A stretch of 64,000 nucleotides of DNA from Candidatus Spongiihabitans sp. (GTDB lineage Bacteria > Pseudomonadota > Gammaproteobacteria > Arenicellales > Poriferihabitantaceae). Of the stretch, positions 14,957-54,335 are shown one piece after another; within the stretch, counting starts at the first letter, position 1, and each line of letters starts with the position of its first letter. Below the pieces are notes generated by a model that saw only the letters and a list, made by a program, of their open reading frames with translations, was not told where the DNA came from and ran no database searches. The stretch covers positions 2,073,304 through 2,137,303 of the forward strand of contig NZ_OZ252047.1 in assembly GCF_965247905.1 (NCBI RefSeq). Direction: 5' to 3'. Position numbers and translations under genes: made by a program.

Positions 14957-15322
14957 AGGAGTCCGGCTACGCCGGACGACATATTTTAACTGGATTCCCG
15001 CCTGCGGCGAGAATGACGGGCTGGGGGGACAAGGGTGAATCGGAAGGCGATGATTTCTTTTGAGAAGACAATGGTAAATAAGTGTCACGCAAAGCGTGAC
15101 ACTAAAACGTGCTCTATTACCTATAATCCGTCATTGCCCGGCCCATATTATTATTATTGGCCGGGCAATCCAGTTATTAAACCGTTCGGCGTAGCCGAAC
15201 TCCTTTGCGGCGAAGCCGCGCTGTTTGTGTCTGGCAAAGCCGTATGCCAAAAAGAGTCACGCTACGCGTGACAGATATTTAACTGGATTCCCGCCTTCGG
15301 CGAGAATGACGAATAAGAGTCG

Positions 15323-15496
15323 TCATTGCCCGGCGATGTGTTGTCTGATTTGAGTATACAATCGGCTGGTCGCTGGACGAGAGATGCCAGTGATTCGAGC
15401 GACTTTGCAAGCCTCGATATCAAGGCAAAACAGCCGTGGAATCGCCCTGAATTTATTCTCCGAAATTCGGCAACGAATGACATGCTTGTTTTTCAT
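15323..15496 (-). pseudogene. N-terminal (HTH) remnant of the same transposase, 57 aa, below the ORF-track cutoff
   Basis: MKNKHVIRCRISENKFRAIPRLFCLDIEACKVARITGISRPATSRLYTQIRQHIAGQ*, resembling the RISE.KFR...RLF.LD..A...A..TG.SR N-terminus of IS1016-like transposases. Confidence 0.75.
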
Positions 15497-15525
15497 TTAT
15501 AGAACAATTAGTTATGACCATTTCA

Positions 15526-16182
15526 CTATACCTTAAAGTATCTTGAACCCTGGTTTTTAACGATGATGACGTGGAAGTGTCTGGGTCCGTGGGCGCCGTA
15601 AACGATGGTTTGTTCAATATCCGCGGTTTTCGAGGGGCCCGTGATAAAATTTATCGCGCGCGGCTGCGCTTTTATCACTTTCATCATGGGCCAGAACTGT
15701 TCCATAGTCGCTACCAATCGTGACTCCAGAAGCACCACAATATTAATTTCCGGCAGAAAATTAAGCGTAACTGGCGAGCGCGCGGACGACACCATGGCGA
15801 TGGTTCCGGTTTCGGCGATTCCCGCAAATGCCAGGGTAATCGAAGTGCGGTCGGATTTTCGAGCCGGTCTTGGTTCAACCACCAGGTCTGCCCAATCCAA
15901 CTGGGTCAACTTTGGGTCGGTTGCGATAGCGGCGCGTAATTTCGCACCTGCTTTTATCAGGTAGTGGGTCGCGGAATCAGGAACATCGCCCAAGTTTGCG
16001 AGAATTTCCCAGGTGCCATGCACCTGAACCAACATTTCGACAAATTGACCTGTTTTATTTGCTTCAATATCAAAGGGGTAATCCGGTTGTGGCAACGCAA
16101 TAGAAAAATCGGGCGCCGATTCAAAATCTGATGAATCGGTTGCCGCGCGAATTTTTGACAATATGGTTTCCCGGGCGCTCAT
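15526..16182 (-). CDS. lutC: Lactate utilization protein C (LutC/YkgG); C-terminus supplied by the MITE
   Basis: GIAETGT, LNFLPE..IVVL, INFITGPSKTADIEQTIVYGAHGP; last residues GSRYFKV are read from the TIR. Confidence 0.9.
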   Translation of the reverse strand: MSARETILSKIRAATDSSDFESAPDFSIALPQPDYPFDIEANKTGQFVEMLVQVHGTWEILANLGDVPDSATHYLIKAGAKLRAAIATDPKLTQLDWADLVVEPRPARKSDRTSITLAFAGIAETGTIAMVSSARSPVTLNFLPEINIVVLLESRLVATMEQFWPMMKVIKAQPRAINFITGPSKTADIEQTIVYGAHGPRHFHVIIVKNQGSRYFKV

Positions 16183-17618
16183 GTTTTATGGCGATGCCGG
16201 GCTTTCCGTAGTTGCTGAAAAGTGGATTGGGCCGGCGCCGGAAAATCCCGCGTCGCGGTCCACGGGCGTGCCAAGGGCAGCCATCGAAACCTTCCTCTGG
16301 CAGCCGTCGATTTAAGCGATTGTAGTCTTGTCAGGATGGCGATTAATATTCTCGTGATCTGGTTATACCGCTTGGGTCGGCTTGCCAATGAATACCAGCA
16401 CCACAGACCAAACTTCTGCGTCCGTGAAGGCGCGCCCATTTGCGCCAAATCCACTCGGTGCTGCCGCAATAATGACGGCAGCGGAATTTTTACCGGACAA
16501 ACCGTTTCGCAGCGCCCATTTAAAGTGCAGGCATTGGGCAAGTGCATTGCCTTTGTTTGCCCCACCAATAACGGCGTCAGCACCGCGCCCACGGGGCCCG
16601 GATAAACCCAGCCATAGGCATGACCACCGATGTTGGTGTAGACCGGGCAATGATTCAAACAGGCGCCGCAGCGGATGCAGCGAAGAATGTCCCGGTATTT
16701 GCCGTTGAGTATTTCGGCGCGACCATTGTCCAGCAACACCACATGAAATTGCTCAGGCCCGTCTAAATCATCTTCTCGTCTGGGGCCATTGAACAAGGTC
16801 GTGTACACGCTCATGCTTTGGCCGGTTGCGCTACGCCCAAGCAAGCGCAGGAATCCGCCCAGTGAAACCAGGTCGGGAATCACTTTTTCAATGCTGGCGA
16901 TAATGATATGCACGTTGGGCAAAGACGCGGTTAAATCACCATTGCCTTCGTTGGTGACGATGACGGCCGAGCCGGTGTCGGCCACTAAAAAGTTTGCCCC
17001 GGTGATGCCGACATCGGCGCTGCAAAAATGATCGCGCAGGATTTGCCGCGCCTGATTGACGATATCTTCGGGCTCGGTAACCTGTTCAAGATAGCCAAGT
17101 CCGGAATGGTGCGCATGAAACAAGTCGGTGACGTTTTGTTTCGACTTGTGCACCGCGGGGGCGATAATATGGCTGGGAGATTCCCCGGCCAACTGAATAA
17201 TATACTCGCCCAAGTCAGTTTCGATGACTTCGTAACCTTGGTCTTGCAACGACTGGTTGGTCACCGCTTCCTCCGAAACCATTGATTTTCCCTTGGTTAT
17301 CTTCCTGGCGTTGGCAGCGGCGCAAATATTTAGAATGATTCTATTCGCTTGTTCTCCGTTCCACGCCCAATGAACCTGACTGCCGTTTTTCGTTGCGTTA
17401 GTTTCAAATTGAGTCAGGTAATAATCCAAGTGTTTTAGCGTGTGATCTTTAACCTGCTGTCCGTAGGTGCGGTAATCCTCAAAGTTTCTTAACTCGGCAA
17501 CCGCTTTTTTTCGGGTATTTACAAATCCCCCCTCGGCCCGGTCAAGCGCGCAACGTAAATCATCATCAAGCAAAGCGGCTTTGGACGCCGAGTTAAAATT
17601 TTGTGATAAAACTTTCAC
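16179..17618 (-). CDS. lutB: Lactate utilization Fe-S protein B (LutB/YkgF)
   Basis: KGKSMVSEE, ETDLGEYIIQLAGE.PSHIIAPAVH, NEGNG, CIRCGACLNHCPVY, CTLNGRCETVCPVKIP. Confidence 0.95.
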   Translation of the reverse strand: MKVLSQNFNSASKAALLDDDLRCALDRAEGGFVNTRKKAVAELRNFEDYRTYGQQVKDHTLKHLDYYLTQFETNATKNGSQVHWAWNGEQANRIILNICAAANARKITKGKSMVSEEAVTNQSLQDQGYEVIETDLGEYIIQLAGESPSHIIAPAVHKSKQNVTDLFHAHHSGLGYLEQVTEPEDIVNQARQILRDHFCSADVGITGANFLVADTGSAVIVTNEGNGDLTASLPNVHIIIASIEKVIPDLVSLGGFLRLLGRSATGQSMSVYTTLFNGPRREDDLDGPEQFHVVLLDNGRAEILNGKYRDILRCIRCGACLNHCPVYTNIGGHAYGWVYPGPVGAVLTPLLVGQTKAMHLPNACTLNGRCETVCPVKIPLPSLLRQHRVDLAQMGAPSRTQKFGLWCWYSLASRPKRYNQITRILIAILTRLQSLKSTAARGRFRWLPLARPWTATRDFPAPAQSTFQQLRKARHRHKT

Positions 17619-18430
17619 TTGTTGATTTCCCGGCTTATTTCTTGCGCTTGACTTTGCGCGATGCCCGCTTCAGGCTCTTCATCCAGTAACCATTCAGCAA
17701 AATGAAAAACCTGAGTTGGTTTTCCGCATCGCGTTATGCGCCCGGCAATGTTCATTAAACAACCGAGGTCGCCTCCGAGCACAATATCCGCTTCAGTTTT
17801 ATCGATGCTGGAAATTTTATTATCGACCAGGCGGGTAGATATTTCGGGGTATTTGACGCAAAAAGCGCCGCCAAATCCGCAGCATATTTCAGAATTATCC
17901 ATCTCATCAATGCGTATCCCGGCACGCTGACTTAACAGTTTTCGCGGCTGAGAACGAATGCCCAACTCGCGCAATCCAGAGCAGGAATCGTGGTAAGTGA
18001 TTTTTTTATCATCGGCAAACCGCCGCGCTTGCGGCGGCGATTTCAGCGGCATGACCTCAACCAAAAACTGAGACAACTCATAGGTTTTGTCCGCCAACTT
18101 CCGCGCGCGGCCAAACCAATTCGGATGGTCGCTGAACAGTTTTGGATAATGCACTTTAACCATGGCCGCACAGGATCCAGACGGCGCGACGACGTAATCG
18201 AACGACTCAAATTGCTCAATCAGATTTTTTGCAAGCACCCGGGTTTTTGCATCATCGCCATTATTGTATGCGGGTTGGCCGCAACAACTCTGTTGCGGCA
18301 CTGAAACATGACAGCCACATTGCTCGATTAAGCGCGCCGCCGCAAATCCGACTTGCGGCCTGAATAAATCCGCCAAACAGGTGATGAATAAGCCTACATG
18401 GTGCGTGGAATTATTGTCGGAGCCGGCCAT
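17615..18430 (-). CDS. lutA: Lactate utilization protein A (LutA/YkgE, CCG domains)
   Basis: LFITCLAD, CCGQPAYNNG, PSGSCAAM, YHDSCSGLR, CCGFGGAF, DLGCLMNI. Confidence 0.95.
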   Translation of the reverse strand: MAGSDNNSTHHVGLFITCLADLFRPQVGFAAARLIEQCGCHVSVPQQSCCGQPAYNNGDDAKTRVLAKNLIEQFESFDYVVAPSGSCAAMVKVHYPKLFSDHPNWFGRARKLADKTYELSQFLVEVMPLKSPPQARRFADDKKITYHDSCSGLRELGIRSQPRKLLSQRAGIRIDEMDNSEICCGFGGAFCVKYPEISTRLVDNKISSIDKTEADIVLGGDLGCLMNIAGRITRCGKPTQVFHFAEWLLDEEPEAGIAQSQAQEISREINK

Positions 18431-18459
18431 GGATGATAGGCATGCCTATGTTATTGAGG

Positions 18460-19281
18460 TTATGTCGATCGATATTGATTAATCTGCCGGCAAATACTTT
18501 GCGCCTGATTGGCCGCGGCGGTCGAAAAATCCGCGCCCGCGCTTGCAAATATAACCTCTCGGGATACATTGATTATCAAGCCCTTTTTTTGTTCGGTTAA
18601 TCCATTTTTTAACGCGCCTTCCAGATCGCCGCCTTGCGCACCGACGCCGGGCACCAGCAGCGGCATGTCGCCGACGATTTGCCTGACTTCCTTAATCGCT
18701 TGCGGATAGGTTGCACCGACCACCAACGCGACATTGTTGTTTTTATTCCATTGCGATGCCGCCAGATGGGCAACATGTTGATAGACTGCCCGCTCGCCAC
18801 TGACCAATTGCTGAAAATCACCAGAGCCGGGATTGGAGGTCCGACACAGCACGATGACGCCGTGATTTTGAAAGCGCAGAAACGGTTCAAGCGCATCGCC
18901 GCCGAGATAGGGATTCACCGTCACCGCATCGGCCTGATAGCGTTCAAACGCTTCGATGGCATACATGCGCGCACTGGAGCCAATATCACCGCGCTTCGCA
19001 TCCAGAATCACCGGCATGGCGGGATATTCAGACTTGATATAGCGAATGGTTTTTTTTAACTGAAGTTCCGCACCGACTGCCGAGTAATAAGCCGCCTGAG
19101 GCTTGTAGGCGCAGGCCCATTGCGCGGTGGCATCAATGATTTCCCGGTTAAATCGATACAGCGGGTGCTTAGCGTTTTTAATGGATTTCGGCAGTCGGTC
19201 CAAGTCAGGATCAAGGCCAACGCAAAGCAGCGAATTTTGCTGCTTCCAGCTATCGGTTAATTTTTCGTAAAAGCCAGACAT
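18460..19281 (-). CDS. pyrF: Orotidine-5'-phosphate decarboxylase, subfamily 2 (ATG 19281 preferred; TTG 19308 possible)
   Basis: LCVGLDP, YKPQAAYY, VILDAKRGDIG, CRTSNPG, VVGATYP, LVPGVGAQGG. Confidence 0.93.
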   Translation of the reverse strand: MSGFYEKLTDSWKQQNSLLCVGLDPDLDRLPKSIKNAKHPLYRFNREIIDATAQWACAYKPQAAYYSAVGAELQLKKTIRYIKSEYPAMPVILDAKRGDIGSSARMYAIEAFERYQADAVTVNPYLGGDALEPFLRFQNHGVIVLCRTSNPGSGDFQQLVSGERAVYQHVAHLAASQWNKNNNVALVVGATYPQAIKEVRQIVGDMPLLVPGVGAQGGDLEGALKNGLTEQKKGLIINVSREVIFASAGADFSTAAANQAQSICRQINQYRST

Positions 19282-19381
19282 GCGCCTACCGGAAAATAAT
19301 CGTCCCAAAAAAAAATTATCTATGGCTGGTTATCATTCATTTAATTTGTCGCTAGTCTAACCGATGAACCATGACCTGCGG

Positions 19382-21907: not shown

Positions 21908-22889
21908 TTTTGATTCTTTGCAGCGCGATCTTTGTGTAATCAGGATCTATCTCAAAGCCGATAAATCTGCGGTTGTCCTGCATGGCGGCTACCGCCGTGG
22001 TTCCGCTACCCATAAATGGATCCAAAACCGTCTGTCCGGAAATGGTGAACAGTCTAATCAGTTGTCGCATAACCACCACCGGCTTTATCGTCATGTGTCC
22101 GAATTCGGCGCCCTTTTTGGGCTTGGGGGCTTCCAGTATGGTGCCGGGAAAACCCTTGCCCATTATCGACTGATCGGGCGACATCAGTCCAGTTTTATGC
22201 GTAAGCCAGTTATTAATAAATGTGCCTTCCTTGGGCTTTTGCGCGAGGATAATTGGCTCGAACTGCGGTTTTAACTGTGGTGTTTTCTTGCCGGAAATTT
22301 GCTTTATTATTGCGTTTTTCTCCGTTGCGCTGAGCTTCATTTTGCGAACAAAATGCGCTTGTGAAAATGCCTTTGCCTGCCCTTCGTATTTCCACGCCAG
22401 CATATCCCTGATTTCAAAACCAGCCTCATCAAAAGCGGTACCAACGGCATACGACAATCTTGCTTGGCAAAAAACGCATGCAAAACCGCCGGGCTTGAGC
22501 ACGCGATAAAGTTCGGCAGCGGTCTTGAGCATAAATTCCCGAAGTCTCTTTGCCTGGTTTTTGTCAAACTTCATGCCCGCGGGCAGTCCGCCAATGACCC
22601 CGGGCTTGACCCGCTGGTTTAGTTTGGCTTTATTCCAGTCATCCCCCATTCCGTCTAAAAAATAGGGCGGGTCGGTGGCGACAAAATGAACCGAATCGGC
22701 GCGCAGACCGCCAAGCCCTTTGATGCAGTCAGCGTTGATTAAAGTGTATTCATTGCCGTCAAACCGTTCGGCGGCATGGATGATTTTATGGCGGTCAAAA
22801 CCAGGCGCAATACGTTGACCGGCGGGACTTGTGCAAGTGGATTTATGCGTGCGCTGTGACATATTTCTTGACTCGATTTTTGCCGGCAA
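21888..22889 (-). CDS. Orphan site-specific DNA methyltransferase, N6-adenine/N4-cytosine, motif IV before motif I (ATG 22862 possible start)
   Basis: ATDPPYF, HMTIKP, VLDPFMGSGTT, FIGFEID..Y. Confidence 0.88.
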   Translation of the reverse strand: MPAKIESRNMSQRTHKSTCTSPAGQRIAPGFDRHKIIHAAERFDGNEYTLINADCIKGLGGLRADSVHFVATDPPYFLDGMGDDWNKAKLNQRVKPGVIGGLPAGMKFDKNQAKRLREFMLKTAAELYRVLKPGGFACVFCQARLSYAVGTAFDEAGFEIRDMLAWKYEGQAKAFSQAHFVRKMKLSATEKNAIIKQISGKKTPQLKPQFEPIILAQKPKEGTFINNWLTHKTGLMSPDQSIMGKGFPGTILEAPKPKKGAEFGHMTIKPVVVMRQLIRLFTISGQTVLDPFMGSGTTAVAAMQDNRRFIGFEIDPDYTKIALQRIKNETELF

Positions 22890-22972: not shown

Positions 22973-24835
22973 CTATAAGTAAAACGTATTCAGCATAGCC
23001 ACGACAATGAAGATAAACATGATGGTCATGATGCTGCCGGCCTTGAGGAAATCAGCGACCTGATAACCCCCGGGGCCCATGATCAAGGCATTCACCTGAT
23101 GGGTAGGAATAAGGAACGAATTGGATGTGGCCAGCGCAACGGTCAGCGCAAACACGGCCGGATTGGTGCCGGCCCCGATTGCGATATTGATGGCCAACGG
23201 AACCAACAGCACGGTGGCCCCGACATTGGATATGATTAGCGTAAATAATGAGGCCAGGATGGCGATGGCGGTTTGCAACATCCAGATTGGCACGCCATCG
23301 AGATAGAACAAAATTTGTTGCGCAATCCAGGCGGCGGTGCCGCTGTTTTCCACCGCAATGCCAAGCGGAATCAAACTGGCGAGCAGAAACACGCTCTGCC
23401 AACCGATGGCCCGATAGGCTTCTTCAATCTTGATCACTCCGCTCAGAATCATACCCACCGCCCCGCTCATCAACGCAACGGATAAACGCACATCGGTGAA
23501 GATGATCAGGAATAGCGTAAGCGCAAAAAACCCGGTCGCGAACTTAAGTTTTTGCGGTCGTTCATCTTCTCTTGGAAAGTCGGTCACCACAACAAAGTCA
23601 TGTCTGGCATCCGCGATTGAACTCAGATTACTCCAGTTAATATGCAAGACCAAGGTGTCCCCGGATTGCAGCACGAGCTCAGGAATACCGCTATCAATAA
23701 CGTCATCGGCGCGAAAAACAGAAAGCACCGTGGCGTCATAGCGCTTCCTTAATGCAACTTCCCGCAACGATTTGCCGATCAGCGATGAGTCCGGCGGGAT
23801 GACCACTTCCGCAATTCCGGCGCTGCTTGAACTGAGTACATCAGCGAATACATCCATTTCGTTTTTCACATGTAGCGCGTATTCCCTGGCAAATTCATAC
23901 ACCGCGTCGCGGCGGCCCATAATCGCCATTTCGCTGCCAGCCCAAAAATCGGTATCGCCGCGCGGCGCGACCACCAACTCATGGCCATTTCTGATTGCAA
24001 CAATCCATCCGGCGCGGCCGGCTGCGTCTATTTCCGAAAGCGTGCGCGATATTAATGGGCTTTCCTTGGTCACGACGCATTCATAGACCTCGCCCTCAAT
24101 GCCATAGACTTCCCGAAAATATTTCAGCATGTTGCCGGATTCGCCCGGCTTATCCTTGATTACCGGCAATACAAAACGTCCAAGAAACACGAAATAACAA
24201 ATTCCGCAAAAAAGCAATGTCAGTCCGATGGGCGTGACCGAAAACATGCTGAATTGCTCCACGACCACTGAGCGGTCCGGCATCGCCTGATTGGAGTTTT
24301 CAATCAGGTCATTGAGCAAAATCAATGGACTGGAACCCACCATGGTTATCGTGCCGCCCAAAATCGCGCAAAACCCCATAGGCATGAGCAGCCTGGAAAT
24401 CGCCAGGTTTCCTCGACGCGCAATCCGATTGACCACCGGCAAAAATAATGCCGCGGCGCCAATATTTTGCAGAAAGCTGGAAATCAATCCCACCACGCTG
24501 GACAGAATCATGATCACCCGGCCTTCCGTATTGCCGCCGATTTTAAGAATTTTGTTGGCCAGTTTGCCCATCACGCCGGTACGATCCAGGCCGGCGCCGA
24601 TAATCATTACCGCAATGATGGAAATAACCGCGTTGCTGGAAAATCCGCTGAACAATTGGCTCGAAGAAACCATGCCATCGTAGCCGGGAATGAGCGCAGT
24701 CAATCCAATTAACACCATCACTGAAACCGCCGCGACATCAATTCTAACAACTTCAAAAGCAAACAAGCAAATGACCAAAAGCAGAATCGCCATAACGGCG
24801 CCCATTTCGGCGGTAAGTTGCAGGCTTTCAGTCAA
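22973..24835 (-). CDS. SLC13-family permease with two TrkA-C domains
   Basis: FSGFSSNAVI, GGTITMVGSSP, central TrkA-C repeats (SPLISRTL / SSLIGKSL), SNSFLIPTHQVNALIMGPGGY. Confidence 0.9.
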   Translation of the reverse strand: MTESLQLTAEMGAVMAILLLVICLFAFEVVRIDVAAVSVMVLIGLTALIPGYDGMVSSSQLFSGFSSNAVISIIAVMIIGAGLDRTGVMGKLANKILKIGGNTEGRVIMILSSVVGLISSFLQNIGAAALFLPVVNRIARRGNLAISRLLMPMGFCAILGGTITMVGSSPLILLNDLIENSNQAMPDRSVVVEQFSMFSVTPIGLTLLFCGICYFVFLGRFVLPVIKDKPGESGNMLKYFREVYGIEGEVYECVVTKESPLISRTLSEIDAAGRAGWIVAIRNGHELVVAPRGDTDFWAGSEMAIMGRRDAVYEFAREYALHVKNEMDVFADVLSSSSAGIAEVVIPPDSSLIGKSLREVALRKRYDATVLSVFRADDVIDSGIPELVLQSGDTLVLHINWSNLSSIADARHDFVVVTDFPREDERPQKLKFATGFFALTLFLIIFTDVRLSVALMSGAVGMILSGVIKIEEAYRAIGWQSVFLLASLIPLGIAVENSGTAAWIAQQILFYLDGVPIWMLQTAIAILASLFTLIISNVGATVLLVPLAINIAIGAGTNPAVFALTVALATSNSFLIPTHQVNALIMGPGGYQVADFLKAGSIMTIMFIFIVVAMLNTFYL

Positions 24836-24884
24836 ACTATGTATTCCAATTGTTATCGCTTGATTATTATGCAGCCGAGTCTCG

Positions 24885-24912
24885 ATTTATCCCGTGAAAT
24901 TTATCCCGTGAA
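24885..24912. repeat. Perfect 14-bp tandem duplication, intergenic
   Basis: atttatcccgtgaa x2. Confidence 0.9.
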
Positions 24913-25086
24913 ATTGGTCTTTGGAGCAGACCGCCACCGACACCCCATTCCTGACCCATTCTATCACTATCCGAATAGATTGTCAGATTTTGCCGCAAAA
25001 ACAAAAACGAGACATAAAATGGGAAACAAAAAACGTTGCCGCTTAAATTTATCCGCCACAAAAAATATCAGTCGATATTGCCCTAA

Positions 25087-26087: not shown

Positions 26088-26090
26088 TTT

Positions 26091-28943: not shown

Positions 28944-29471
28944 ATGACTCAGTCCGAAAAATTGTTGCGGGATTGGCTGGCCAATTGTCTGGGCTGCGTC
29001 GCCGGTCGGCGAGAATTTCAACTCGATCGGTACATGGTGAAAGCGGTAAAAAACTGTCAAGATGTATTAAGCGCCTACGATGATTTTGTCGTTGCTCTGA
29101 AAGAAAAAGCGGCCGTCGCGTGTCTGTTTGTCCTCGACGACTTGCCCGGCATATATTCGTCTGACGGCACCAATGCGATTGTGCAAATCAATCAAATCGC
29201 CGAAATGATGGTGGTCTTGTCCGAAGCGCCGACCCGCGATTTGGTTAACGGTGGCAATTTGTTTGAAAAAAAAATTCTAGTTCGTGGCAACGCTTTGCGG
29301 TGCGAACGATTAACAATTACATTCAAATTACTAATTCCCAGCGGTGTCCGACTTTTCTTACCGACGACCATCGTCACTGGTACGCCAACCACCAAGCCCC
29401 CGCTTTTGCCGAGACCTGCAAAAATCTTTATCGGCATGATATGCCAATCATTTAGGTTCAAGATACTTTAA
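28944..29471 (+). CDS. Hypothetical protein; C-terminus rewritten by MITE copy 2
   Basis: 175-aa ORF divergent from the MFS pseudogene; no family recognised with confidence; last residues RFKIL* come from the TIR. Confidence 0.55.
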   Translation: MTQSEKLLRDWLANCLGCVAGRREFQLDRYMVKAVKNCQDVLSAYDDFVVALKEKAAVACLFVLDDLPGIYSSDGTNAIVQINQIAEMMVVLSEAPTRDLVNGGNLFEKKILVRGNALRCERLTITFKLLIPSGVRLFLPTTIVTGTPTTKPPLLPRPAKIFIGMICQSFRFKIL

Positions 29472-30062
29472 GGTATAGTGAAATGGTCATACCTAATTGT
29501 TCTATAAATGAAAAACAAGCATGTCATTCTCGCCGGCAGGCGGGAATCCAGAGTGGCGTAGCCGCCGAGACGCGTGCATACATTAGCGGTAAGCAACAAG
29601 CATCATCGCCTTGCCGTCATTCTCGCATCAAACGGCGCGGCTTCGCCGAAAATGAGTCCGGCTACGCCGGACGGCATATTCAACTGGATTGCCCGGCCAA
29701 TAATAATATGGGCCGGGCAATGACAAATGATAGGCAATGGTGAATTGAGAAGACAAAAGCGCGTTGAGACGCCAAAGCACACGAGAGAAAATGTCCAGCT
29801 ACGCCAGAGCACGTTTTAGTGTCACGCTTTGCGTGACAATTATTTACCATTGTCCTCTCAAAAGGAGTATTGCCTTCCGATTCACCATTGTCCCCCCAGC
29901 CCGTCATTCTCGCCGCAGGCGGGAATCCAGTTAAAATATGTCGTCCGGCGTAGCCGGACCCCTTTGAAAGAGTGTGAGTCTCGCTTCAATATGCGCCACG
30001 AAAATGGGTGTCAATATCTGCTAAAATCTATCCGAAATCGACCGCTTAAAGTATCTTGAACC
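29455..30062 (+). mobile_element. IS1595-derived MITE, copy 2, 608 bp, opposite orientation to copies 1 and 3
   Basis: Same 18-bp TIRs at 29455-29472 and 30045-30062; TSD ATCATTTA at 29447-29454 and 30063-30070; transposase remnants MKNKHVI (29508-29528) and LKECESRFN...KVS* (29964-30059). Confidence 0.93.
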
Positions 30063-38057: not shown

Positions 38058-39518
38058 CTAACTGGTTTGATAATTCGGCGCTTCCTTGACGATGGAAACA
38101 TCATGCACATGGCTTTCCTTCATGCCCGCATTGGTGATGCGAATAAATTGCGTTTTATGGCGCATATCTTCTATCGTGCCACTGCCGGTATAACCCATGC
38201 TGGCGCGCAGCCCGCCCATCAACTGATGGATAATATTCACCATCGGGCCCTTATAAGGCACGCGCCCTTCAATCCCTTCCGGCACTAATTTATCCGCGCT
38301 ATCGACGCTTTCCTGAAAATACCGATCCTTGGAGCCCTTCTGCATGGCGCCGAGGGAGCCCATGCCCCGATAAGATTTGTAAGAGCGTCCTTGAAATATT
38401 TCGATTTCACCCGGCGATTCATCGGTACCCGCTAAAATACCCCCGACCATCACCGTATTCGCGCCACAAGCGATGCACTTGGCGATATCGCCGGAAAATC
38501 GGATGCCGCCATCCGCAATGAAAGGAACATCCGTTCCCTTTAAGCCTTTAGCAACTTGCTGGAGCGCATGAATCTGCGGCACGCCGACGCCAGCGACAAT
38601 TCGGGTGGTACAAATCGAACCGGGACCAATGCCCACTTTGACCGCATCAGCACCGGCATTGACCAAGTCCCTGGCCGCTTCCGCTGTGGCGATGTTACCG
38701 CCGATCACCTGCATACCGGCGTAAGTTCTTTTAATCATCGCGATCCGATCAAGCACCCCGCGAGAATGACCATGAGCAGTATCCACGACGAGGGCATCGA
38801 CCCCGGCGTTCGCCAGACACTCCACTCTTTCATCCGCATCTTCGCCAACGCCAACCGCCGCGGCTACCAGCAGCCGCCCTTGATCATCCCTGCAAGCATT
38901 GGGGTAATCACTGGATTTTTGAATATCCTTCACGGTCACCAACCCGTTAAGTTCATTGTCGCCGCTCACCACCAAGACTTTCTCGATACGATGTTGATGC
39001 AATAAGCGTTGAATTTCGTCCGAAGATGCGCGCTTACCCACCGTCACCAGATGCTCTTCTGTGGTCATCACTTTATCAACCGGCGTATCCATATTCTTTT
39101 CAAACCTCAAATCACGATTGGTGACGATACCAATGACCTTTCGGCCATCAACCACGGGAACGCCCGATATTGAATACTTTTGCATCAGCTGAAGCACATC
39201 CTTGACCCGAGCGGTTTTTTCCACCGTTACCGGATCGGTGATCACGCCACTCTCGAATTTCTTTACCTGATTGACTTCCTTGGCCTGTAATTGCGGCGTT
39301 AAATTTCTATGAATCACACCCACACCGCCTTGCTGTGCCAGACAAATCGCCGCCTTGGCAGCGGTTACGGTGTCCATAGCCGCAGAAACCAAAGGAATAT
39401 TTATTGTGAGATTGCGGGTAAAGCGGGTTTTTAGATCCGCATCCTGAGGCAGAATTTCAGATTTTGCAGGAACCAACAAAACATCGTCGAAAGTCAGTGC
39501 TAAATCAATGGCTTTCAT
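38058..39518 (-). CDS. guaB: IMP dehydrogenase
   Basis: [12 protein letters not shown] pair, [29 protein letters not shown]. Confidence 0.98.
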
Positions 39519-44672: not shown

Positions 44673-44796
44673 CTGGATTGCGCGTATCGTCCCTGATACG
44701 CGTTCTGGCGAACTCGCTGCGCTCGCGAAAAATCGCTCCTGGCGATTTTTTCCAACTCCTGTTTTCACAGGGGTGACGTTCTTTAGTTGGAATGAC
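44673..44796. repeat. REP-like hairpin interrupted by a ~71-bp mini-element (44680-44750)
   Basis: ctggatt [insert] tccaac...gttggaatgac; insert is similar to 53903-53973. Confidence 0.75.
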
Positions 44797-47884: not shown

Positions 47885-47893
47885 TAAAAATCA

Positions 47894-49264: not shown

Positions 49265-49311
49265 GCCCTGTCTCTATAAGATAAGTGCCAATTTGTTAGC
49301 AGCCCTTATTT

Positions 49312-51054
49312 ATGACCAATCTGATTGAAATTAAAACTCCTGATTTGGGCGAGTTTGAAAACGTCCCCATCATCGAAATTTTTGTACAAGTTGGTGATGT
49401 CATAGCGACAGACGACCCTCTGGTCGCCATAGAAAGCGATAAAGCCACAATGGAAATCCCCGCCAGCCATAGCGGTGTCATTAAGGAAATGAAAATTGCG
49501 GTCGGCGATGCAATTTCCTCCGGTCAAGTCTTGCTCGTGGTCGAGTCGCGCGGCACCAGCGTGACGAAAAAAGTCGCGGATGAAATCGCCGATGAAGTCG
49601 CCGTGACGAAAGAAGTCGCACCCAAAACCGCGAAAGGGAATGGCGATAAGCATGCCGCGTTGGTGGTATTGGGCTCGGGACCAGGTGGCTACACCGCCGC
49701 ATTCCGCGCCGCGGATTTGGGGCTTGATGTTATCTTGATCGAGCGCCATGAAAATCTCGGCGGGGTTTGTCTCAACGTGGGCTGCATCCCGTCCAAAGCG
49801 CTGTTGCATGTCGCAAAAGTGGTCACCGATGCCGCCGATGCCAAAGCCATTGGACTTGACTTTGCACCGCCCACGGTGGACCTCAAGCAAACGCTTAAAT
49901 GGAAAAACGGCATTGTCAATCAGTTGACGCAAGGGCTGGCGGGTTTGGCCAAAAAACGCAAAGTCACGGTGATTCATGGCTTGGGGCAATTCATAAGTCC
50001 AAACAGGATTGAAGTCGCTTCCAACTCGGGCGCTGAAACCGTCTCCTTTGAACAGGCCATTATCGCGGCCGGCTCGCAACCGATTGAAATACCGGGCTTC
50101 CCCCATGCTGATCCAAGGTTGCTGGATTCAACCAGCGCATTGGCGCTGGACGACATCCCTGAAAGGCTGCTGATTGTCGGCGGCGGCATCATTGGCCTGG
50201 AAATGGCGACCGTATATCATGCGCTGGGCAGCAAAATCAGCGTCGTGGAAATGCTGGCTGGACTGATGGCCGGCGCCGATGCGGACTTGGTGCGGCCGTT
50301 GCAAAAACGCATCAAGCACCAGTACGAAAACATTTGGCTAAAGACCAAAGTCACGCAGATGAAAGCGCTGAAAAATGGCATCAAAGTCAGTTTTGAAGGC
50401 GACCAAGCGCCGGAGAATGAAACCTTTGGCAAGGTGCTGGTGTCGGTTGGCAGAACGCCCAATGGCAATAGAATAAATGCACAAGCGGCCGGTGTCAGCG
50501 TTTCAGAGCATGGATTTATCGCGGTTAATGATCAACAACAAACCAATATTCCGCATATCTTTGCCATTGGCGATATAGTGGGTCAGCCCATGCTAGCGCA
50601 CAAAGCGGTGCATGAGGGCAAGGTCGCTGCCGAAGTCGCGGCCGGACTGAACAGCGGGTTTGATGCCAGAGTGATTCCGAGCGTGGCTTATACCGATCCA
50701 GAGGTAGCATGGGTTGGTGTCACCGAAGCCGAAGCCAAAGCGCAAGGTCTGGACTATGGCAAAGGCGTTTTCCCCTGGGCCGCCAGCGGTCGATCTCTGT
50801 CTCAAGGCCGTCGCGACGGCGTGACCAAACTTCTTTTTGACAACCATACCCATAGAATCATTGGCGCCGGAATTACCGGCAGCAATGCTGGGGAACTTAT
50901 CGCCGAAGCCACGCTCGCCATTGAGATGAATGCGGATGCTGCGGATATTGGATTGTCGATACACGCCCACCCTACCCTGGCCGAAACTTTGGGCTTGGCT
51001 GCGGAAGCGTTTGAAGGCACGATTACTGATTTGTATCTGCCGAAGAAAAAATAA
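49312..51054 (+). CDS. lpdA: Dihydrolipoamide dehydrogenase with an N-terminal lipoyl domain
   Basis: IESDKAT lipoyl site, GSGPGGY, GGVCLNVGCIPSKAL, GGGIIGLE, HAHPTLAE. Confidence 0.97.
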   Translation: MTNLIEIKTPDLGEFENVPIIEIFVQVGDVIATDDPLVAIESDKATMEIPASHSGVIKEMKIAVGDAISSGQVLLVVESRGTSVTKKVADEIADEVAVTKEVAPKTAKGNGDKHAALVVLGSGPGGYTAAFRAADLGLDVILIERHENLGGVCLNVGCIPSKALLHVAKVVTDAADAKAIGLDFAPPTVDLKQTLKWKNGIVNQLTQGLAGLAKKRKVTVIHGLGQFISPNRIEVASNSGAETVSFEQAIIAAGSQPIEIPGFPHADPRLLDSTSALALDDIPERLLIVGGGIIGLEMATVYHALGSKISVVEMLAGLMAGADADLVRPLQKRIKHQYENIWLKTKVTQMKALKNGIKVSFEGDQAPENETFGKVLVSVGRTPNGNRINAQAAGVSVSEHGFIAVNDQQQTNIPHIFAIGDIVGQPMLAHKAVHEGKVAAEVAAGLNSGFDARVIPSVAYTDPEVAWVGVTEAEAKAQGLDYGKGVFPWAASGRSLSQGRRDGVTKLLFDNHTHRIIGAGITGSNAGELIAEATLAIEMNADAADIGLSIHAHPTLAETLGLAAEAFEGTITDLYLPKKK

Positions 51055-51057
51055 TTT

Positions 51058-51069
51058 GGGTCATGACCC
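51058..51069. promoter_or_regulatory. 12-bp perfect palindrome between lpdA and the MMPL gene (candidate operator or hairpin)
   Basis: GGGTCATGACCC, flanked by aaataa and ttattt. Confidence 0.3.
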
Positions 51070-51092
51070 TTATTTATTTCAGGTAATTTTCA

Positions 51093-53435
51093 ATGGAGCA
51101 ATTCGCAATCAAGTGGGGAAGTTGGGTCACCCGTAATCGAATCCTGACGCTGGCGCTTTCTTTGATGCTCGCCATGGCGGCCGCTTCCGGCGTTCAGTTT
51201 CTGGGATTCACCAATGATTATCGCGTGTTTTTTTCTGGTGATGATCCGCATTTGCTGGCCTTTGAAAACCTGCAAAGCACCTATACAAAAAACGATAATG
51301 TTTTATTTGTTATCGCGCCTGATGATGGCAAGGTGTTCACCCGCGATACGCTGGCGGCGATTTCGCAGTTGACCGATCGCGCTTGGCAGACGCCGTTTTC
51401 GATCAGGGTGGATTCGCTGTCAAACTATCAGCACACCGAGGCGCAAGGCGATGACCTGATAGTGGCCGATTTGTATGAAGACGCCGACTCCCTGAGCGCT
51501 GCCGACCTGGCGCACATTCGCGCCATCGCGGTCAACGAGCCTTTCCTGGTGCATCGCCTGATCTCCGCGGATGCTCATGTTGCCGCCATTAATATTACGG
51601 TCGAGACCCCAGGAATTGATGAAGCCACCGAAGGCCCCCAGGTTGTTGAGCATGTTCGGGCGATGCGAAGTTATGCCGAGCAAGCCTATCCAAACCTGAA
51701 CATTTACCTGACCGGCATCATGATGATGAACCAGGCCTTTCCGGAAGCCTCGTTATACGACATGACCCATCTGGTGCCGGCCGCTTTCGCCCTCATCCTG
51801 TTTCTTGTATTCCTGCAGTTAAGGGGATTTAGCGGCACGCTGGCGACCTTCATCACCATCGCGCTTTCCATCGTCTCGGCAATGGGCATGGCCGGCTGGA
51901 TGGGCATTAAACTGACCCCGCCGTCGATGTCCGCACCCACAATTATTCTGACCTTGGCGGTCGCGGACTGTGTGCATGTCCTGGCCAACTGGCTGCAGAA
52001 ATACCGCGGCGGGATGGACAAGATCACGTCCATGGCGGAAAGCCTGAGAATCAATTTCAGCCCGGTCTTGCTGACCTCGGTGACCACCGCCATCGGCTTC
52101 CTGTCCCTGAATTTTAGTGATGCCCCGCCGTTCGGCGACCTCGGCAACATCGCCGCAATGGGCGTTTTGTTTGCCTGGTTCTACGCTATGACGCTATTGC
52201 CTGCTCTGGTTACGTTACTGCCTGCAAGTACCAGGAAGGGCCGGGCTTACGGCGGTGAAATAATGAACACGTTTTCAGGCTGGGTGATTCGCCGGCGCGC
52301 TATGCTGATGCCAGTGGTCAGTTTAGTGATTGTTGGCTTGGTATTGTGGATTCCAAAAAACCAGTTAAATGATATTTTCGTCAACTACTTCGATGAGCGC
52401 ATCGAGTTTCGCACCGACACCGATTTCGTTGTGGACAATCTGACTGGCATGTATTTCATCGATTATTCACTGAATGCCGGGCAGTCCGGCGCAATTTCTG
52501 AACCGCGCTACCTGCAACAGGTGCAACAATTCACCGACTGGCTGCGGCGGCAGCCCGAGGTCATTCATGTCAATACCGTGACCGATGTGTTCAAGCGCAT
52601 CAACAAAAGTATGCATGGCGATGATCCATTCTGGTACGCGTTGCCGGAACAACGCGAAATGGCGGCGCAGTATCTGCTGCTGTACGAACTGTCCCTGCCC
52701 TATGGCTTGGACTTGAACAATCAAATCGATATCGATAAACAACGCACACGGCTGAGCGCCACGCTTAAAACCTTGTCCACAACGAATACCCTGGCTTTCG
52801 AGCAGCGGGTAAGTCTTTGGCTGCAGCAGAACACGCCGGAAATTCACACCATCGGCGCCAGCCCAACCATCATGTTTTCCCATATCGGCATGCGCAACAT
52901 TATCAGTATGTTAGGCGGCACCGCGTTCGCGCTGGTGGCAATATCGTTGTTGCTGATGCTGGCGTTCGGCTCGGTGCGGTATGGCTTGCTGACCTTGCTG
53001 CCCAATATCGCCCCGGCGGCGATGGCGTTCGGACTGTGGGGCATCGTGGACGCCGAAATAGGTTTGGGTTTGTCGGTTGTTACGGCAATGACGCTCGGCA
53101 TCGTGGTCGACGACACCATCCACTTCATGAGCAAATACTTGCGCGCGCGCCGCGACCAAGGTCTGGATGCAATCGAAGCGGTTGGTTACGCATTTTCGAC
53201 CGTGGGCATTCCGTTATGGATTACCTCGGTGGCATTGGCCGCCGGCTTTTTGGTGTTAGCAACTTCTTCGTTTACGTTGAATGCGGAGATGGGCTTGTTG
53301 GTCGCTATCGTGATCATGTTCGCCCTGATCGTTGATTTCCTGTTGCTGCCGACCTTGCTGATTCGATTCGATCGATGGTTGATTGGCGCAACGCGGAAAA
53401 ATTCAGAAATCGAGGCCACCGCCCAGTCGGCATAA
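51093..53435 (+). CDS. MMPL/RND-family exporter
   Basis: Two repeats of TM + periplasmic + 5 TM; LAVADCVH, LLTSVTTAIGFLSL, GIVVDDTIHF. Confidence 0.9.
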   Translation: MEQFAIKWGSWVTRNRILTLALSLMLAMAAASGVQFLGFTNDYRVFFSGDDPHLLAFENLQSTYTKNDNVLFVIAPDDGKVFTRDTLAAISQLTDRAWQTPFSIRVDSLSNYQHTEAQGDDLIVADLYEDADSLSAADLAHIRAIAVNEPFLVHRLISADAHVAAINITVETPGIDEATEGPQVVEHVRAMRSYAEQAYPNLNIYLTGIMMMNQAFPEASLYDMTHLVPAAFALILFLVFLQLRGFSGTLATFITIALSIVSAMGMAGWMGIKLTPPSMSAPTIILTLAVADCVHVLANWLQKYRGGMDKITSMAESLRINFSPVLLTSVTTAIGFLSLNFSDAPPFGDLGNIAAMGVLFAWFYAMTLLPALVTLLPASTRKGRAYGGEIMNTFSGWVIRRRAMLMPVVSLVIVGLVLWIPKNQLNDIFVNYFDERIEFRTDTDFVVDNLTGMYFIDYSLNAGQSGAISEPRYLQQVQQFTDWLRRQPEVIHVNTVTDVFKRINKSMHGDDPFWYALPEQREMAAQYLLLYELSLPYGLDLNNQIDIDKQRTRLSATLKTLSTTNTLAFEQRVSLWLQQNTPEIHTIGASPTIMFSHIGMRNIISMLGGTAFALVAISLLLMLAFGSVRYGLLTLLPNIAPAAMAFGLWGIVDAEIGLGLSVVTAMTLGIVVDDTIHFMSKYLRARRDQGLDAIEAVGYAFSTVGIPLWITSVALAAGFLVLATSSFTLNAEMGLLVAIVIMFALIVDFLLLPTLLIRFDRWLIGATRKNSEIEATAQSA

Positions 53436-53440
53436 ATTAA

Positions 53441-54335
53441 GGTTCAAGATACTTTAAGCGGTCGATTTCGGATAGATTTTAGCAGATATTGACACCTGTT
53501 TTCGTGGCGCATATTGAAGCGAAACTCACACTCTTTCAAAGGAGTCCGGCTACGCCGGACGACATATTTTAACTGGATTCCCGCCTGCGGCGAGAATGAC
53601 GGGCTGGGGGGACAATGGTGAATCGGAAGGCAATGAGTCCTTTTGAGAGGACAATGGTAAATAATTGTCACGCAAAGCGTGACACAACCGGCGGCTACGC
53701 CACTCTGGATTCCCGCCTGCCGGCGAGAATGACAAATGAGGGTCGTCATTGCCCGGCCCATATTATTATTGGCCGGGCAATCCAGTGGAATATGCCGTCC
53801 GGCGTAGCCGGACTCATTTGCGGCGTAGCCGCCGGTTTGTGTCTGGCAAAGCCGGATGCCAATAAAGAGTCACGCTACGCGTGACAGATATTTAACTGGA
53901 TTTGCGCGTATCATCCCTGATACGCGCCCTTCGGGCTCGCTTCGCTCGCGAAAAATCGCTCCCAGCGGTTTTTTCCGCCTTCGGCGAGAATGACGGCAGG
54001 GAGGGCGATTCTTTCCGCCTGCCGGCGAGAATGACGGCCGAGAGGGCGGCGCTAAAACACCGCCGGAAAGGAACAAAACGGGCAATGAATTAGTGAACAC
54101 ATACGCTCGCATTGCCCGGCGATGTGTTGTCTGATTTGAGTATACAATCGGCTGGTCGCCGGGCCAGAGATGCCGGTGTTTTGTGCGACTTTGCAAGCCT
54201 CGATATCAAGGCAAAACAGCCGTGGAATCGCCCTGAATTTATTCTCCGAAATTCGGCAGCGAATGACATGCTTGTTTTTAATTTATAGAACAATTCGTTA
54301 TGACCATTTCACTATACCTTAAAGTATCTTGAACC
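53441..54335 (-). mobile_element. IS1595-derived MITE, copy 3, 895 bp
   Basis: Same 18-bp TIRs at 53441-53458 and 54318-54335; TSD TAAATTAA at 53433-53440 and 54336-54343; transposase C-remnant 53444-53539; N-remnant about 54100-54282 with ATG changed to ATT. Confidence 0.93.

What the first reader, a model, noticed from the sequence alone, without database searches (positions are those of the whole stretch)
14990..54112. Hairpin cassettes are shuffled between MITE copies, with junctions at GTCATT/CATTGCCC motifs native to the transposase gene
Seen: about 245 bp at one end and 70 bp at the other are conserved, but the middle differs in content and order. In copy 2 the transposase reads ATG AAA AAC AAG CAT GTC ATT and switches to a REP exactly at its own GTCATT (29523). 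In copy 1 the switch is 50 codons later, where native gCATTGCCC (kept in copy 3 at about 54109) has become a REP-type gtCATTGCCC (15322). The module ggcggctacgccactctggattcccgcctgccggcgagaatgac is next to the end core in copy 2 (about 29523-29566, reverse) but mid-element in copy 3 (about 53690-53733). Inference: REP units integrate or recombine at short REP-end-like motifs, repeatedly and independently, producing a cassette-like variable cargo.
Basis: partly seen in the sequence, partly recalled or inferred. Interest (0 to 1): 0.7.

Follow-up and report, generated by a model that had tools for sequence, protein, structure and literature searches.

The report
Hairpin arrays decaying inside gutted transposons
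The three elements are old, disabled copies of a small jumping gene (IS1595/IS1016 type) whose interior is filled with the host's Ssn-type DNA hairpins, and they differ mainly through ordinary deletions and duplications between short repeated stretches, not through hairpin cassettes inserted or shuffled at a special motif.

Summary
The window holds three copies (692, 608 and 895 bp) of a family with at least 63 complete members. Each has perfect 18-bp terminal inverted repeats and an 8-bp AT-rich target duplication. Each keeps only the first 58 or fewer and the last 31 codons of an IS1016-type transposase. The interior is an array of hairpin modules, two of them NTS/SRM-type hairpins (GTCATT-stem-AATCCAG) of the Ssn nuclease system.

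The shuffling and integration reading is not supported:
- Module order and orientation follow a tight grammar: 70 adjacency types against about 235 in shuffles.
- All three window copies are collinear deletion derivatives of longer copies elsewhere in the genome.
- Eleven junction classes average 4.8 nt of microhomology against 0.66 by chance. Only four of them involve those motifs.
- No copy shows native sequence resuming after an inserted hairpin.

The best explanation is an old transposition burst followed by slippage and unequal recombination between short direct repeats. One item remains unexplained: a 72-nt structured block sits inside one hairpin of copy 3.

The parts
14858..15549 (-). 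Copy 1 (692 bp). Modules in transposase-sense order: N1 N2 | A B C D E F V G T A E' | Ct. It lacks N3 and K.
   Evidence: TIRs, module string, TSD CTGGTTTT at 14850-14857 and 15550-15557.
15324..15549 (-). Copy 1: relic of the IS left end (TIR, leader and 57 codons, MKNKHVIRCRISENKF...IAGQ). It ends in GCCGGGCAATG, which is fused to the right arm of an F hairpin (11-nt microhomology).
   Evidence: (class 226).
14858..14955 (-). Copy 1: last 98 bp of the parent IS (codons ...LKECEFRFNMRHENGCQYLLKSIRNRPLKVS*, with the stop inside the TIR).
   Evidence: Alignment to the degenerate parent copy G000:C1:516153-516892.
29455..30062 (+). Copy 2 (608 bp): N1 | A J Q S E F (W) G T A E' | Ct. It equals the real copy E198583 minus one 462-bp deletion.
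   Evidence: TSD ATCATTTA.
29522..29529 (+). Deletion junction TGTCATTC. This 8-nt stretch is shared by codons 5-7 of the transposase relic and by the 5' flank and arm of the A (NTS-type) hairpin.
   Evidence: the gap edges both read TGTCATTC; second-longest native/array shared k-mer; microhomology 8.
29523..29566 (+). A-J module pair (GTCATTCTCGCCGGCAGGCGGGAATCCAG AGTGGCGTAGCCGCC).
   Evidence: The A hairpin fits the published SRM search motif.
53441..54335 (-). Copy 3 (895 bp): N1 N2 N3 | K A(long) B C D E F A J G T U A E' | Ct.
   Evidence: TSD TAAATTAA at 53433-53440 and 54336-54343.
53690..53733 (-). The same A-J pair in copy 3. It is preceded by one extra K-A-B-C-D-E-F unit and followed directly by G-T-U (Q-S-E-F-W deleted), so it is collinear with copy 2.
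53903..53974 (-). 72-nt structured block lying between GGCGG and AATCCAG of the first A hairpin. It is the one gain-type difference in the window.
   Evidence: searches (K 108 B; 71-nt query-only gap; the same position in other A hairpins of different paralogue types), fold.
54036..54106 (-). N3 module, the first non-IS module. Homology to the parent IS stops at GGGCAATGCGA. N3 also occurs outside the MITEs.

Best explanation
The three elements are fossil, non-autonomous derivatives of an IS1595-family (IS1016-subgroup) insertion sequence.

Origin:
- The catalytic core of the transposase gene was replaced by an array of the host's own hairpin repeats.
- The array contains NTS/SRM-type hairpins of the Ssn system (A and F, bracketed by GTCATT...AATCCAG). 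It also contains small hairpins with GTA or TAC loops (B, D, E and J; G has a TTT loop) and longer modules (C, Q, S, K, V, T, U).
- A DDE transposase acting in trans once scattered about 90 copies into AT-rich sites, each with an 8-bp duplication. This step is shown by the sequence.
- No intact partner transposase remains, and the copies are now about 92% identical pairwise.

Diversification:
- The arrays are internally repetitive and rich in hairpins, so each copy has changed by deletions and tandem duplications between short direct repeats. The repeats are either paralogous modules within the array or chance microhomologies between the array and the IS relic.
- The likely processes are replication slippage or unequal recombination. 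This step is inferred.
- The GTCATT and CATTGCCC junctions are the two longest such microhomologies, not recognition sites.
- Module order and orientation are inherited, not shuffled.
For: Element identity:
- Perfect 18-bp TIRs.
- 63 paired copies plus 27 solo ends.
- 48 of 63 copies have a perfect 8-bp TSD, 93% A+T, as for the IS1016 subgroup (PMC12561309).
- The ends match the degenerate parent copy over its first 229 and last 98 bp.
- Relics of the transposase N terminus occur at about 70 loci.

Conserved grammar:
- 931 adjacencies fall into 70 types, against 235 (minimum 221) in 500 shuffles.
- 96% of adjacencies belong to recurrent types, and 986 of 994 modules have the canonical orientation.
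- All three window copies, and 31 to 44 of the 63 copies, are subsequences of one template.

Base-level collinearity:
- Copy 2 equals E198583 minus one 462-bp deletion at TGTCATTC.
- Copy 1 equals E2797197 minus an N3+K deletion at GCCGGGCAATG and a 133-bp deletion between two E modules.

Microhomology:
- The 11 N-side junction classes have 6, 2, 8, 0, 3, 0, 6, 6, 11, 11 and 0 nt. The mean is 4.8, against 0.66 by chance (maximum 2.3 in 300 trials).
- GCCGGGCAATG and TGTCATTC are the longest native/array shared k-mers.

Change after insertion:
- Tandem duplications have periods of 24, 41, 180, 197, 198, 231 and 253 bp.
- In-element tandem copies are 98.3% alike, against 96.2% between elements.
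- The tree of the element ends is star-like, with terminal branches of about 0.03. Architecture is not clustered on it (22 changes against 24.4 in shuffles).
- No intact IS carries these TIRs.
- The family is absent from six same-genus genomes.
Against: - 19 of 63 copies cannot be derived by deletion alone. Both unit orders (K-A-B-C-D-E-F before A-J-Q-S-E-F, and the reverse) occur, and 8 modules are inverted.
- The 72-nt block inside the A hairpin of copy 3 is a gain. The same site is occupied in A hairpins of other paralogue types. Slippage does not explain this.
- Three junction classes show no microhomology.
- The loop variant of A is tightly linked to what lies downstream (GAA to B in 31 of 34; GGCA to J or its variant J2 in 18 of 20). 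It is only loosely linked to what lies upstream. Many exchanges therefore lie at or 5' of the NTS 5' arm, which a nuclease-stimulated model would also predict.
- The module tokens cover 80% of the sequence; linkers were read by eye.
- In-situ change could not be seen directly, because public short-read contigs break at the repeats.
Confidence: 0.78

Rival explanations
1. Rearrangement stimulated by Ssn nicks. The genome's Ssn-type GIY-YIG nucleases cut single-stranded DNA a few nucleotides 5' of NTS-type hairpins. The breaks are repaired through nearby short homologies. Array junctions would then concentrate at GTCATT because of cleavage, not only because of homology.
For: - Two single-domain GIY-YIG genes of about 98 aa lie at G000:C1:472110-472406 and 1312891-1313187. 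Each is bracketed by an inverted pair of GTCATT...AATCCAG hairpins, and the first sits inside A/F/K/E arrays.
- Module A fits the published SRM motif and folds better on the GTCATT strand.
- SsnA cuts ssDNA a few nucleotides upstream of the NTS (PMC11893778).
- The A loop type is linked to its downstream context but not to its upstream context.
Against: - The same positions are also the longest stretches of identity, so the sequence alone cannot separate cleavage from homology.
- 7 of 11 N-side junction classes are not at an NTS flank.
- Markers inside the E-F blocks also assort nearly independently (Cramer's V 0.18), so exchanges are not confined to GTCATT.
- No activity data exist for these paralogues.
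Confidence: 0.2
2. Individual REP or hairpin units integrate site-specifically at short REP-end-like motifs (GTCATT, CATTGCCC, CTGGAT), repeatedly and independently. This would build a shuffled, cassette-like cargo.
For: - 59 architectures occur among 63 copies.
- The modules also occur in 162 clusters outside the MITEs, in both orientations and in other combinations, including solitary A...F units.
- A 72-83-nt block occupies the same site in several different A hairpins.
- Different hairpin cores share the GTCATT/AATCCAG brackets: 769 in the genome against 4 in the control.
Against: - No copy has native IS sequence on both sides of a hairpin. Every junction with native sequence is a deletion.
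- Order and orientation are conserved far beyond chance.
- The window copies are collinear with longer copies.
- Junctions follow microhomology of any sequence.
- The RAYT-like Y1 genes carry their own unrelated inverted repeats and have no array module within 600 bp.
Confidence: 0.06
3. The diversity predates insertion. Many master elements with different arrays existed, and each transposed once or a few times, so present differences reflect the donor and not decay in place.
For: Four architectures are each found at two loci, for example E2052241 with E2335431 and E607349 with E1446130. Some arrays were therefore copied intact by transposition.
Against: - The tree of the ends is star-like and shows no clustering of architecture.
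- Tandem duplicates within an element are younger than the between-copy divergence.
- 59 of 63 architectures are unique.
- The rearrangement mechanism would be the same in either case.
Confidence: 0.2

Closest known systems
IS1595 family, IS1016 subgroup (e.g. ISApl4, 712 bp; PMC12561309) and its non-autonomous MITE derivatives
   Same: - Short terminal inverted repeats.
- A/T-rich 8-bp direct repeats at the insertion site.
- A parent of about 740 bp encoding a DDE transposase of about 220 aa with the ...DE.YFG...HINGIENF...KECEFRFN signature.
- The derivatives keep only the two ends of the IS.
   Different: - The interior is not a simple deletion. It is replaced by 40-1350 bp of host hairpin arrays.
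- Many copies are as long as or longer than the parent IS.
- No intact partner transposase is left in the genome.
NTS / SRM hairpins with Ssn GIY-YIG single-strand nucleases (Chenal et al. 2025, PMC11893778)
   Same: - Module A (CGTCATTCTCGCCGCAGGCGGGAATCCAG) has the NTS layout and fits the SRM search motif.
- The hairpins are oriented by non-palindromic flanks.
- The small GIY-YIG genes are flanked by inverted hairpin pairs.
- The genome shows a massive expansion and is reported to be a symbiont.
   Different: - Here the hairpins ride inside a DDE-transposon shell.
- The same GTCATT/AATCCAG brackets enclose several unrelated stems (the A type, the F type and an ATCGGG type).
- Some hairpins are split by a 72-83-nt block.
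- Membership of the proteins in cd10448 and their activity were not tested.
Neisserial intergenic mosaic elements (NIMEs: dRS3 hairpins flanking RS modules; PMC1797815) and E. coli BIMEs (REP mosaics; own knowledge)
   Same: - Arrays alternate hairpin repeats with other repeat modules.
- Composition varies between loci.
- Recombination within arrays is proposed to generate new variants.
   Different: - This is not Neisseria.
- The stem reads ATTCTC...GGGAAT with 9-10 nt between the halves, not the dRS3 ATTCCC-N8-GGGAAT.
- About one third to three fifths of each module type's copies lie inside transposon relics.
- There is no RAYT link, unlike BIMEs.
Deletion and duplication between short direct repeats at palindromes (replication slippage; nearly precise excision of Tn10/Tn5; own knowledge of the classical E. 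coli literature)
   Same: - The junctions lie in 2-11-nt direct repeats next to hairpin-forming DNA.
- Both deletions and tandem duplications occur.
- No sequence motif is required.
   Different: The process is inferred here from end products only. Its dependence on RecA or on Ssn is unknown.
BOX elements of Streptococcus pneumoniae (boxA-(boxB)n-boxC; own knowledge)
   Same: A modular non-coding mobile-like element with fixed end modules and a variable number of internal modules in conserved order.
   Different: BOX elements have three module types and no transposase relic. Here about 20 module types were tokenised (about 16 of them internal), there is a recognisable IS skeleton, and the copies carry target-site duplications.

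Membership tests
IS1595/IS1016-derived non-autonomous element (MITE-like) | Terminal inverted repeats matching those of a parent IS | tested here: met
   Perfect 18-bp TIRs occur on all three copies. The right end is identical to that of the degenerate parent copy at G000:C1:516153-516892.
IS1595/IS1016-derived non-autonomous element (MITE-like) | 8-bp (7-9 bp), A/T-rich target-site duplication | tested here: met
   48 of 63 copies have a perfect 8-bp TSD, 54 of 63 have at most one mismatch, and the TSDs are 93% A+T. The family trait is described in PMC12561309.
IS1595/IS1016-derived non-autonomous element (MITE-like) | Sequence descent from a DDE_Tnp_IS1595 transposase gene, with no intact transposase inside | tested here: met
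   The copies retain 58 N-terminal and 31 C-terminal codons. The parent relic hits PF12762. The interior holds only hairpin modules.
IS1595/IS1016-derived non-autonomous element (MITE-like) | Miniature size (well below the parent IS) | tested here: not met
   The median copy is 793 bp and the range is 368-1686 bp, against a parent of about 740 bp. 'MITE' is therefore used loosely.
IS1595/IS1016-derived non-autonomous element (MITE-like) | A cognate autonomous IS able to mobilise it in trans | tested here: not met
   None of the 16 PF12762 loci has these TIRs together with an open frame. The family looks extinct in this genome.
NTS/SRM hairpin of the Ssn system | Fits the published SRM motif HGTCWYN(0-2)YYVSBRHN(0-5)WNVSBRGN(0-2)RNCYNB | tested here: met
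   Module A fits. The genome has 189 hits against 12 in the reversed control. Module F and the ATCGGG-stem hairpin do not fit the motif, but they share the GTCATT/AATCCAG brackets.
NTS/SRM hairpin of the Ssn system | A small single-domain GIY-YIG gene flanked by an inverted pair of the hairpins | tested here: met
   The 98-aa PF01541 genes lie at 472110-472406 (F-type pair, with A and K adjacent) and at 1312891-1313187 (GTCATTATCGGGCTTGACCCGATAATCCAG pair).
NTS/SRM hairpin of the Ssn system | The protein belongs to cd10448 and cuts ssDNA upstream of the hairpin | not testable with these tools
   No CDD library or assay is available. NCBIfam gives only weak hits to generic GIY-YIG-containing models, far below their cut-offs. 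A sister GIY-YIG family cannot be excluded.
NIME (Neisseria) arrays | dRS3 = ATTCCC-N8-GGGAAT flanking RS modules | tested here: not met
   Read directly from the sequence: A is ATTCTC-N9/10-GGGAAT. The architecture is analogous, not identical.
REP/BIME mobilised by a RAYT (Y1 transposase) | A RAYT gene flanked by the same REPs | tested here: not met
   The five PF01797 loci carry unrelated inverted repeats and have no array module within 600 bp.
Site-specific cassette integration (integron- or IS200-like) | A unit is inserted with target sequence intact on both sides at a defined motif | tested here: not met
   In all 21 truncated N-side copies the downstream native sequence is lost. N2 directly follows N1 in all 53 copies that carry both, and 45 of the 47 N3 modules directly follow N2.

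The most novel reading that the evidence does not exclude
Ssn-type hairpins may be both targets and vehicles of a single-strand-DNA process that has not been described.
- The 72-83-nt structured block (AAAAAA...CGCGAGCGAAGCGAGCCCGAAGGGCGCGTATCAGGGATGATACGCGCA) would insert site-specifically between the 3' stem and the AATCCAG flank of bracketed hairpins of several stem types.
- The GTCATT...AATGAC doublet units (A...F) would be discrete mobile cassettes that land next to existing hairpins.
- Arrays, including those inside the transposon shells, would then grow by insertion as well as by slippage, with the GIY-YIG nucleases supplying the nicks.
Probability: 0.1. Interest if true: 0.7.

Novelty: new variant of a known kind. 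Interest (0 to 1): 0.35.

Why it matters
How NTS/SRM hairpins multiply is an open question (Discussion of PMC11893778). This genome shows one concrete route. An IS1016-type shell captured an array and spread about 90 copies of it. Those copies hold roughly three fifths of the genome's A-type hairpins and two fifths of its F-type hairpins.

The 63 dated, independent copies also form a natural experiment on how hairpin arrays mutate. The result is sobering for cassette models. Nearly every copy is unique, yet order is conserved and the junctions follow microhomology. Apparent motif-specific junctions in repeat mosaics should therefore be tested against the available homology before a recombinase is invoked.

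Tried and rejected
- Fuzzy-regex tokenising timed out. It was replaced by blastn-short.
- Chaining BLAST HSPs against long copies gave implausibly low coverage, because repeated modules produce overlapping HSPs. It was replaced by the module-subsequence test and affine-gap global alignment.
- Public read sets were laid on copy 1 to look for array heterogeneity in place. They are short-read contigs that break at the repeat. They show only that a second sample, with flanks about 2.3% diverged, shares the insertion.
- The tree of the ends against architecture has too few informative sites. It is star-like with one starred branch, and the association is p about 0.1.
- Linkage between markers along E-spacer-F-linker-A was inflated by rare categories. 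It shows only that exchanges also occur inside E-F blocks.
- A RAYT link was rejected.
- Rfam gave no hit above threshold on copy 3.
- Founding of the MITE at the F arm was checked and rejected. The native sequence runs 4-6 nt past GCCGGGCAATG before N3 starts.

Full report
**1. What is there**

The three regions are copies of one element, bounded by a perfect 18-bp terminal inverted repeat, GGTTCAAGATACTTTAAG (six matches in the window, none expected).
- Copy 1 is 14858-15549, copy 2 is 29455-30062 (opposite orientation), and copy 3 is 53441-54335.
- Each copy is flanked by a perfect 8-bp direct repeat.

In the whole 3.03-Mb genome:
- There are 63 TIR-paired copies of 368-1686 bp (median 793, 50.7 kb in all) and 27 solo ends.
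- 48 of the 63 have a perfect 8-bp target duplication, and the targets are 93% A+T.

One end keeps the TIR, a leader and up to 58 codons of a transposase (MKNKHVIRCRISENKFRAIPRLFCLDIEACKVA...; about 70 loci). The other end keeps the last 31 codons (...LKECEFRFNMRHENGCQYLLKSIRNRPLKVS*). A degenerate full-length parent of about 740 bp lies at G000:C1:516153-516892. The short copies match it over its first 229 and last 98 bp only. It hits DDE_Tnp_IS1595 and carries the IS1016-subgroup signature. Size, TIRs and A/T-rich 8-bp repeats agree with that subgroup (PMC12561309). None of the 16 IS1595-type loci combines these TIRs with an open frame, so the family has no visible partner transposase left.

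**2. The interior**

I tokenised all 63 copies with a library of modules (the tokens cover 80% of the bases).
- The interior is an array of hairpins and linkers.
- A is GTCATTCTCGCC-loop-GGCGGGAATCCAG.
- F is CTGGATTGCCCGG-loop-CCGGGCAATGAC, the same brackets on the other strand.
- B, D, E and J are small hairpins with GTA or TAC loops; G has a TTT loop.
- The remaining modules are C, Q, S, K, V, T and U.

Module A has the layout of the Neisseria NTS (CGTCATTCCCGCGMAVGCGGGAATCYRG) and fits the published SRM search motif. There are 189 genome hits against 12 in a reversed control. GTCATT...AATCCAG brackets number 769 against 4. A folds better on the GTCATT strand.

The genome has two 98-aa single-domain GIY-YIG genes, each flanked by an inverted pair of such hairpins, as described for ssn genes (PMC11893778). 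The five RAYT-like Y1 genes have unrelated inverted repeats and no array module nearby.

The modules are as abundant outside the transposon shells as inside. There are 162 outside clusters, in both orientations and in other combinations. The arrays are therefore host repeats that an IS captured, not parts of the IS. Both the element and the A-type stem are absent from six genomes of the same genus.

**3. Is the cargo shuffled?**

It is not.
- Among 931 module adjacencies there are 70 types, against a mean of 235 (minimum 221) when modules are shuffled within elements.
- 96% of adjacencies belong to recurrent types, and 986 of 994 modules have the canonical orientation.
- The grammar is cyclic. 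It runs A-B-C-D-E-F, or A-J-Q-S-(D)-E-F, optionally with K in front, and ends with (W/V)-G-T-U-A-E' and the IS end.

The window copies read as follows:
- Copy 1: N1 N2 A B C D E F V G T A E' Ct.
- Copy 2: N1 A J Q S E F G T A E' Ct.
- Copy 3: N1 N2 N3 K B C D E F A J G T U A E' Ct.

All three are subsequences of one 24-module template.

At base level:
- Copy 2 equals the real 1028-bp copy at 198583-199610 minus a single 462-bp deletion.
- Copy 1 equals the 924-bp copy at 2797197-2798120 minus two deletions.
- Copy 3 differs from those copies by one 239-bp deletion and one 72-nt gain.

Copy 3 has one more unit in front of it and lacks Q-S-E-F behind it.

Genome-wide, 31 copies (one template) to 44 copies (a three-unit template) of the 63 are deletion-only derivatives. 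The other 19 need tandem duplications or rare small inversions. TRF finds duplications with periods of 24, 41, 180, 197, 198, 231 and 253 bp.

**4. Are the junctions motif-specific?**

I catalogued every copy whose homology to the native IS left end stops early.
- This gave 11 junction classes, at native positions 57, 74, 75, 115, 132, 134, 165, 220, 226 (two classes) and 232.
- In every class the downstream native sequence is gone. No copy has a hairpin inserted with native sequence resuming afterwards.
- The other classes use AAATGA, GGCA, CGCCGG or nothing.
- Microhomology at the junctions is 6, 2, 8, 0, 3, 0, 6, 6, 11, 11 and 0 nt. The mean is 4.8, against 0.66 for random native positions (maximum 2.3 in 300 trials).
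- The longest exact words shared by the native 229 bp and the arrays are GCCGGGCAATG (11 nt, 82 array occurrences) and TGTCATTC (8 nt, 41 occurrences).
- The 11-nt junction has been used at least three times independently, with different downstream partners.

This is the signature of illegitimate recombination or replication slippage between short direct repeats in hairpin-rich DNA, not of a site-specific reaction.

**5. When did it happen?**

- Copies are about 92% (N2, N3) to 94% (IS 3' end) identical pairwise.
- The tree of the IS-derived ends is star-like, with terminal branches of about 0.03. Array architecture is not clustered on it (22 changes against 24.4 in shuffles).
- Tandem copies within one element are more alike (98.3%) than the same segment between elements (96.2%).
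- 59 of the 63 architectures are unique, while four recur at two loci each.
- A second public sample, whose flanks differ by about 2.3%, has the copy-1 insertion at the same site.

Together these results point to an old burst from a few long masters, followed by independent decay and occasional expansion in place. I could not observe change in place directly, because the public contigs break at the repeat.

**6. What remains open**

(a) The loop variant of A predicts its downstream neighbour much better than its upstream one.
- GAA is followed by B in 31 of 34 cases.
- GGCA is followed by J or its variant J2 in 18 of 20 cases.
- GCA is followed by the terminal E' in 42 of 60 cases.

Many unit exchanges therefore lie at or 5' of the 12-nt arm GTCATTCTCGCC. 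That is where homology is, but it is also where an Ssn nuclease would nick ssDNA. The sequence cannot separate the two, and markers inside the E-F blocks also assort nearly freely.

(b) Copy 3 carries a 72-nt structured block (53903-53974) between GGCGG and AATCCAG of its first A hairpin.
- Dozens of sibling copies have the short hairpin at that position.
- The same site is filled in A hairpins of other paralogue types (GCA loop followed by E', GGCA loop followed by J) and after other 5' hairpins.
- This is a gain, by insertion or by gene conversion. It is the only observation that favours integration of any kind.

**7. Verdict**

The object is a variant of known kinds, namely an IS1016-type shell carrying a NIME-like array of Ssn-type hairpins. 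It is of specialist interest as one route by which such hairpins spread and as a data set on how they mutate.

Noticed in passing
window 53903-53974 (also G000:C1:2316023, 2239357, 1824504, 528533): A 72-83-nt structured block (AAAAAA..CGCGAGCGAAGCGAGCCCGAAGGGCGCGTATCAGGGATGATACGCGCA) sits between the 3' stem (GGCGG) and the AATCCAG flank of A hairpins of different paralogue types. Sibling MITE copies have the short hairpin, so this is a derived gain at a fixed site.
   Followed up: partly
window 44679-44739 (- strand): The same block family lies behind a different 5' hairpin (GTCACCCCTGTGAAAACAGGAGTTGG AAAAAA ...) and ends in AATCCAG. The bracket-plus-block layout is therefore shared by several stem types.
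   Followed up: partly
G000:C1:947488-947692, 2264801-2265076, 293231-293447 (outside the window): Tandem arrays of three to four copies of the block with a 72-nt period, each array opened by a GTCA hairpin plus A6 and closed by ..AATAATCCAG.
   Followed up: no
G000:C1:2026830-2028341 (outside the window): Six tandem K-A-B-C-D-E-F units (period about 232 bp) ending in the IS 3' end with only one TIR. This is the largest array expansion in the genome.
   Followed up: no
G000:C1:519515, 526318, 533288 (outside the window): The same 500-bp module pattern (D F A F B' F A E' D' B' F) recurs at about 7.0-kb spacing, which suggests a large tandem duplication of a gene block separated by hairpin arrays.
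   Followed up: no
G000:C1:2668777-2669804 (outside the window): A different small element (TIR GGGAACTATCAAGGAAAGTTGACAA) is nested in the IS 3' relic of one copy, with its own 8-bp duplication TCAATATC.
   Followed up: no
G000:C1:443783-444527, 2138855-2139600, 607349-608140 and others: These are chimeric copies. One end carries the variant TIR GGTTCAAGATACTATAAA. Two copies also carry a different N-terminal relic (MKNRYIKHSRISEATF..) fused in frame to the usual one. This indicates recombination between two related IS1595-type elements.
   Followed up: no
window 28944-29471 (+) and 15526-16182 (-): The open frames of the neighbouring genes run into the TIRs of copies 2 and 1. Copy 3 starts 6 nt after a stop codon. 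The AT-rich target preference places the elements right at gene 3' ends.
   Followed up: partly
G000:C1:38886-39016, 353497, 523116, 2176028, 2222531: Module N3 (GTATGTGTTCACTAATTCA.TGCC..) also occurs outside the MITEs. In four of the five solitary copies outside the MITEs, and at the A...F unit at 38886, it directly follows the ..AAT of an NTS-type arm in place of CCAG or GAC. This looks like a recurrent array-start module.
   Followed up: partly
G000:C1:14736-15443 and 24218-24931; 2143464-2144129: RAYT-like Y1 transposase genes are each flanked by their own inverted repeats (GGATTAGGGTCAGAGTAGAAAT.. and GGGGACACAATACGGAA..). These are unrelated to the arrays studied here.
   Followed up: partly
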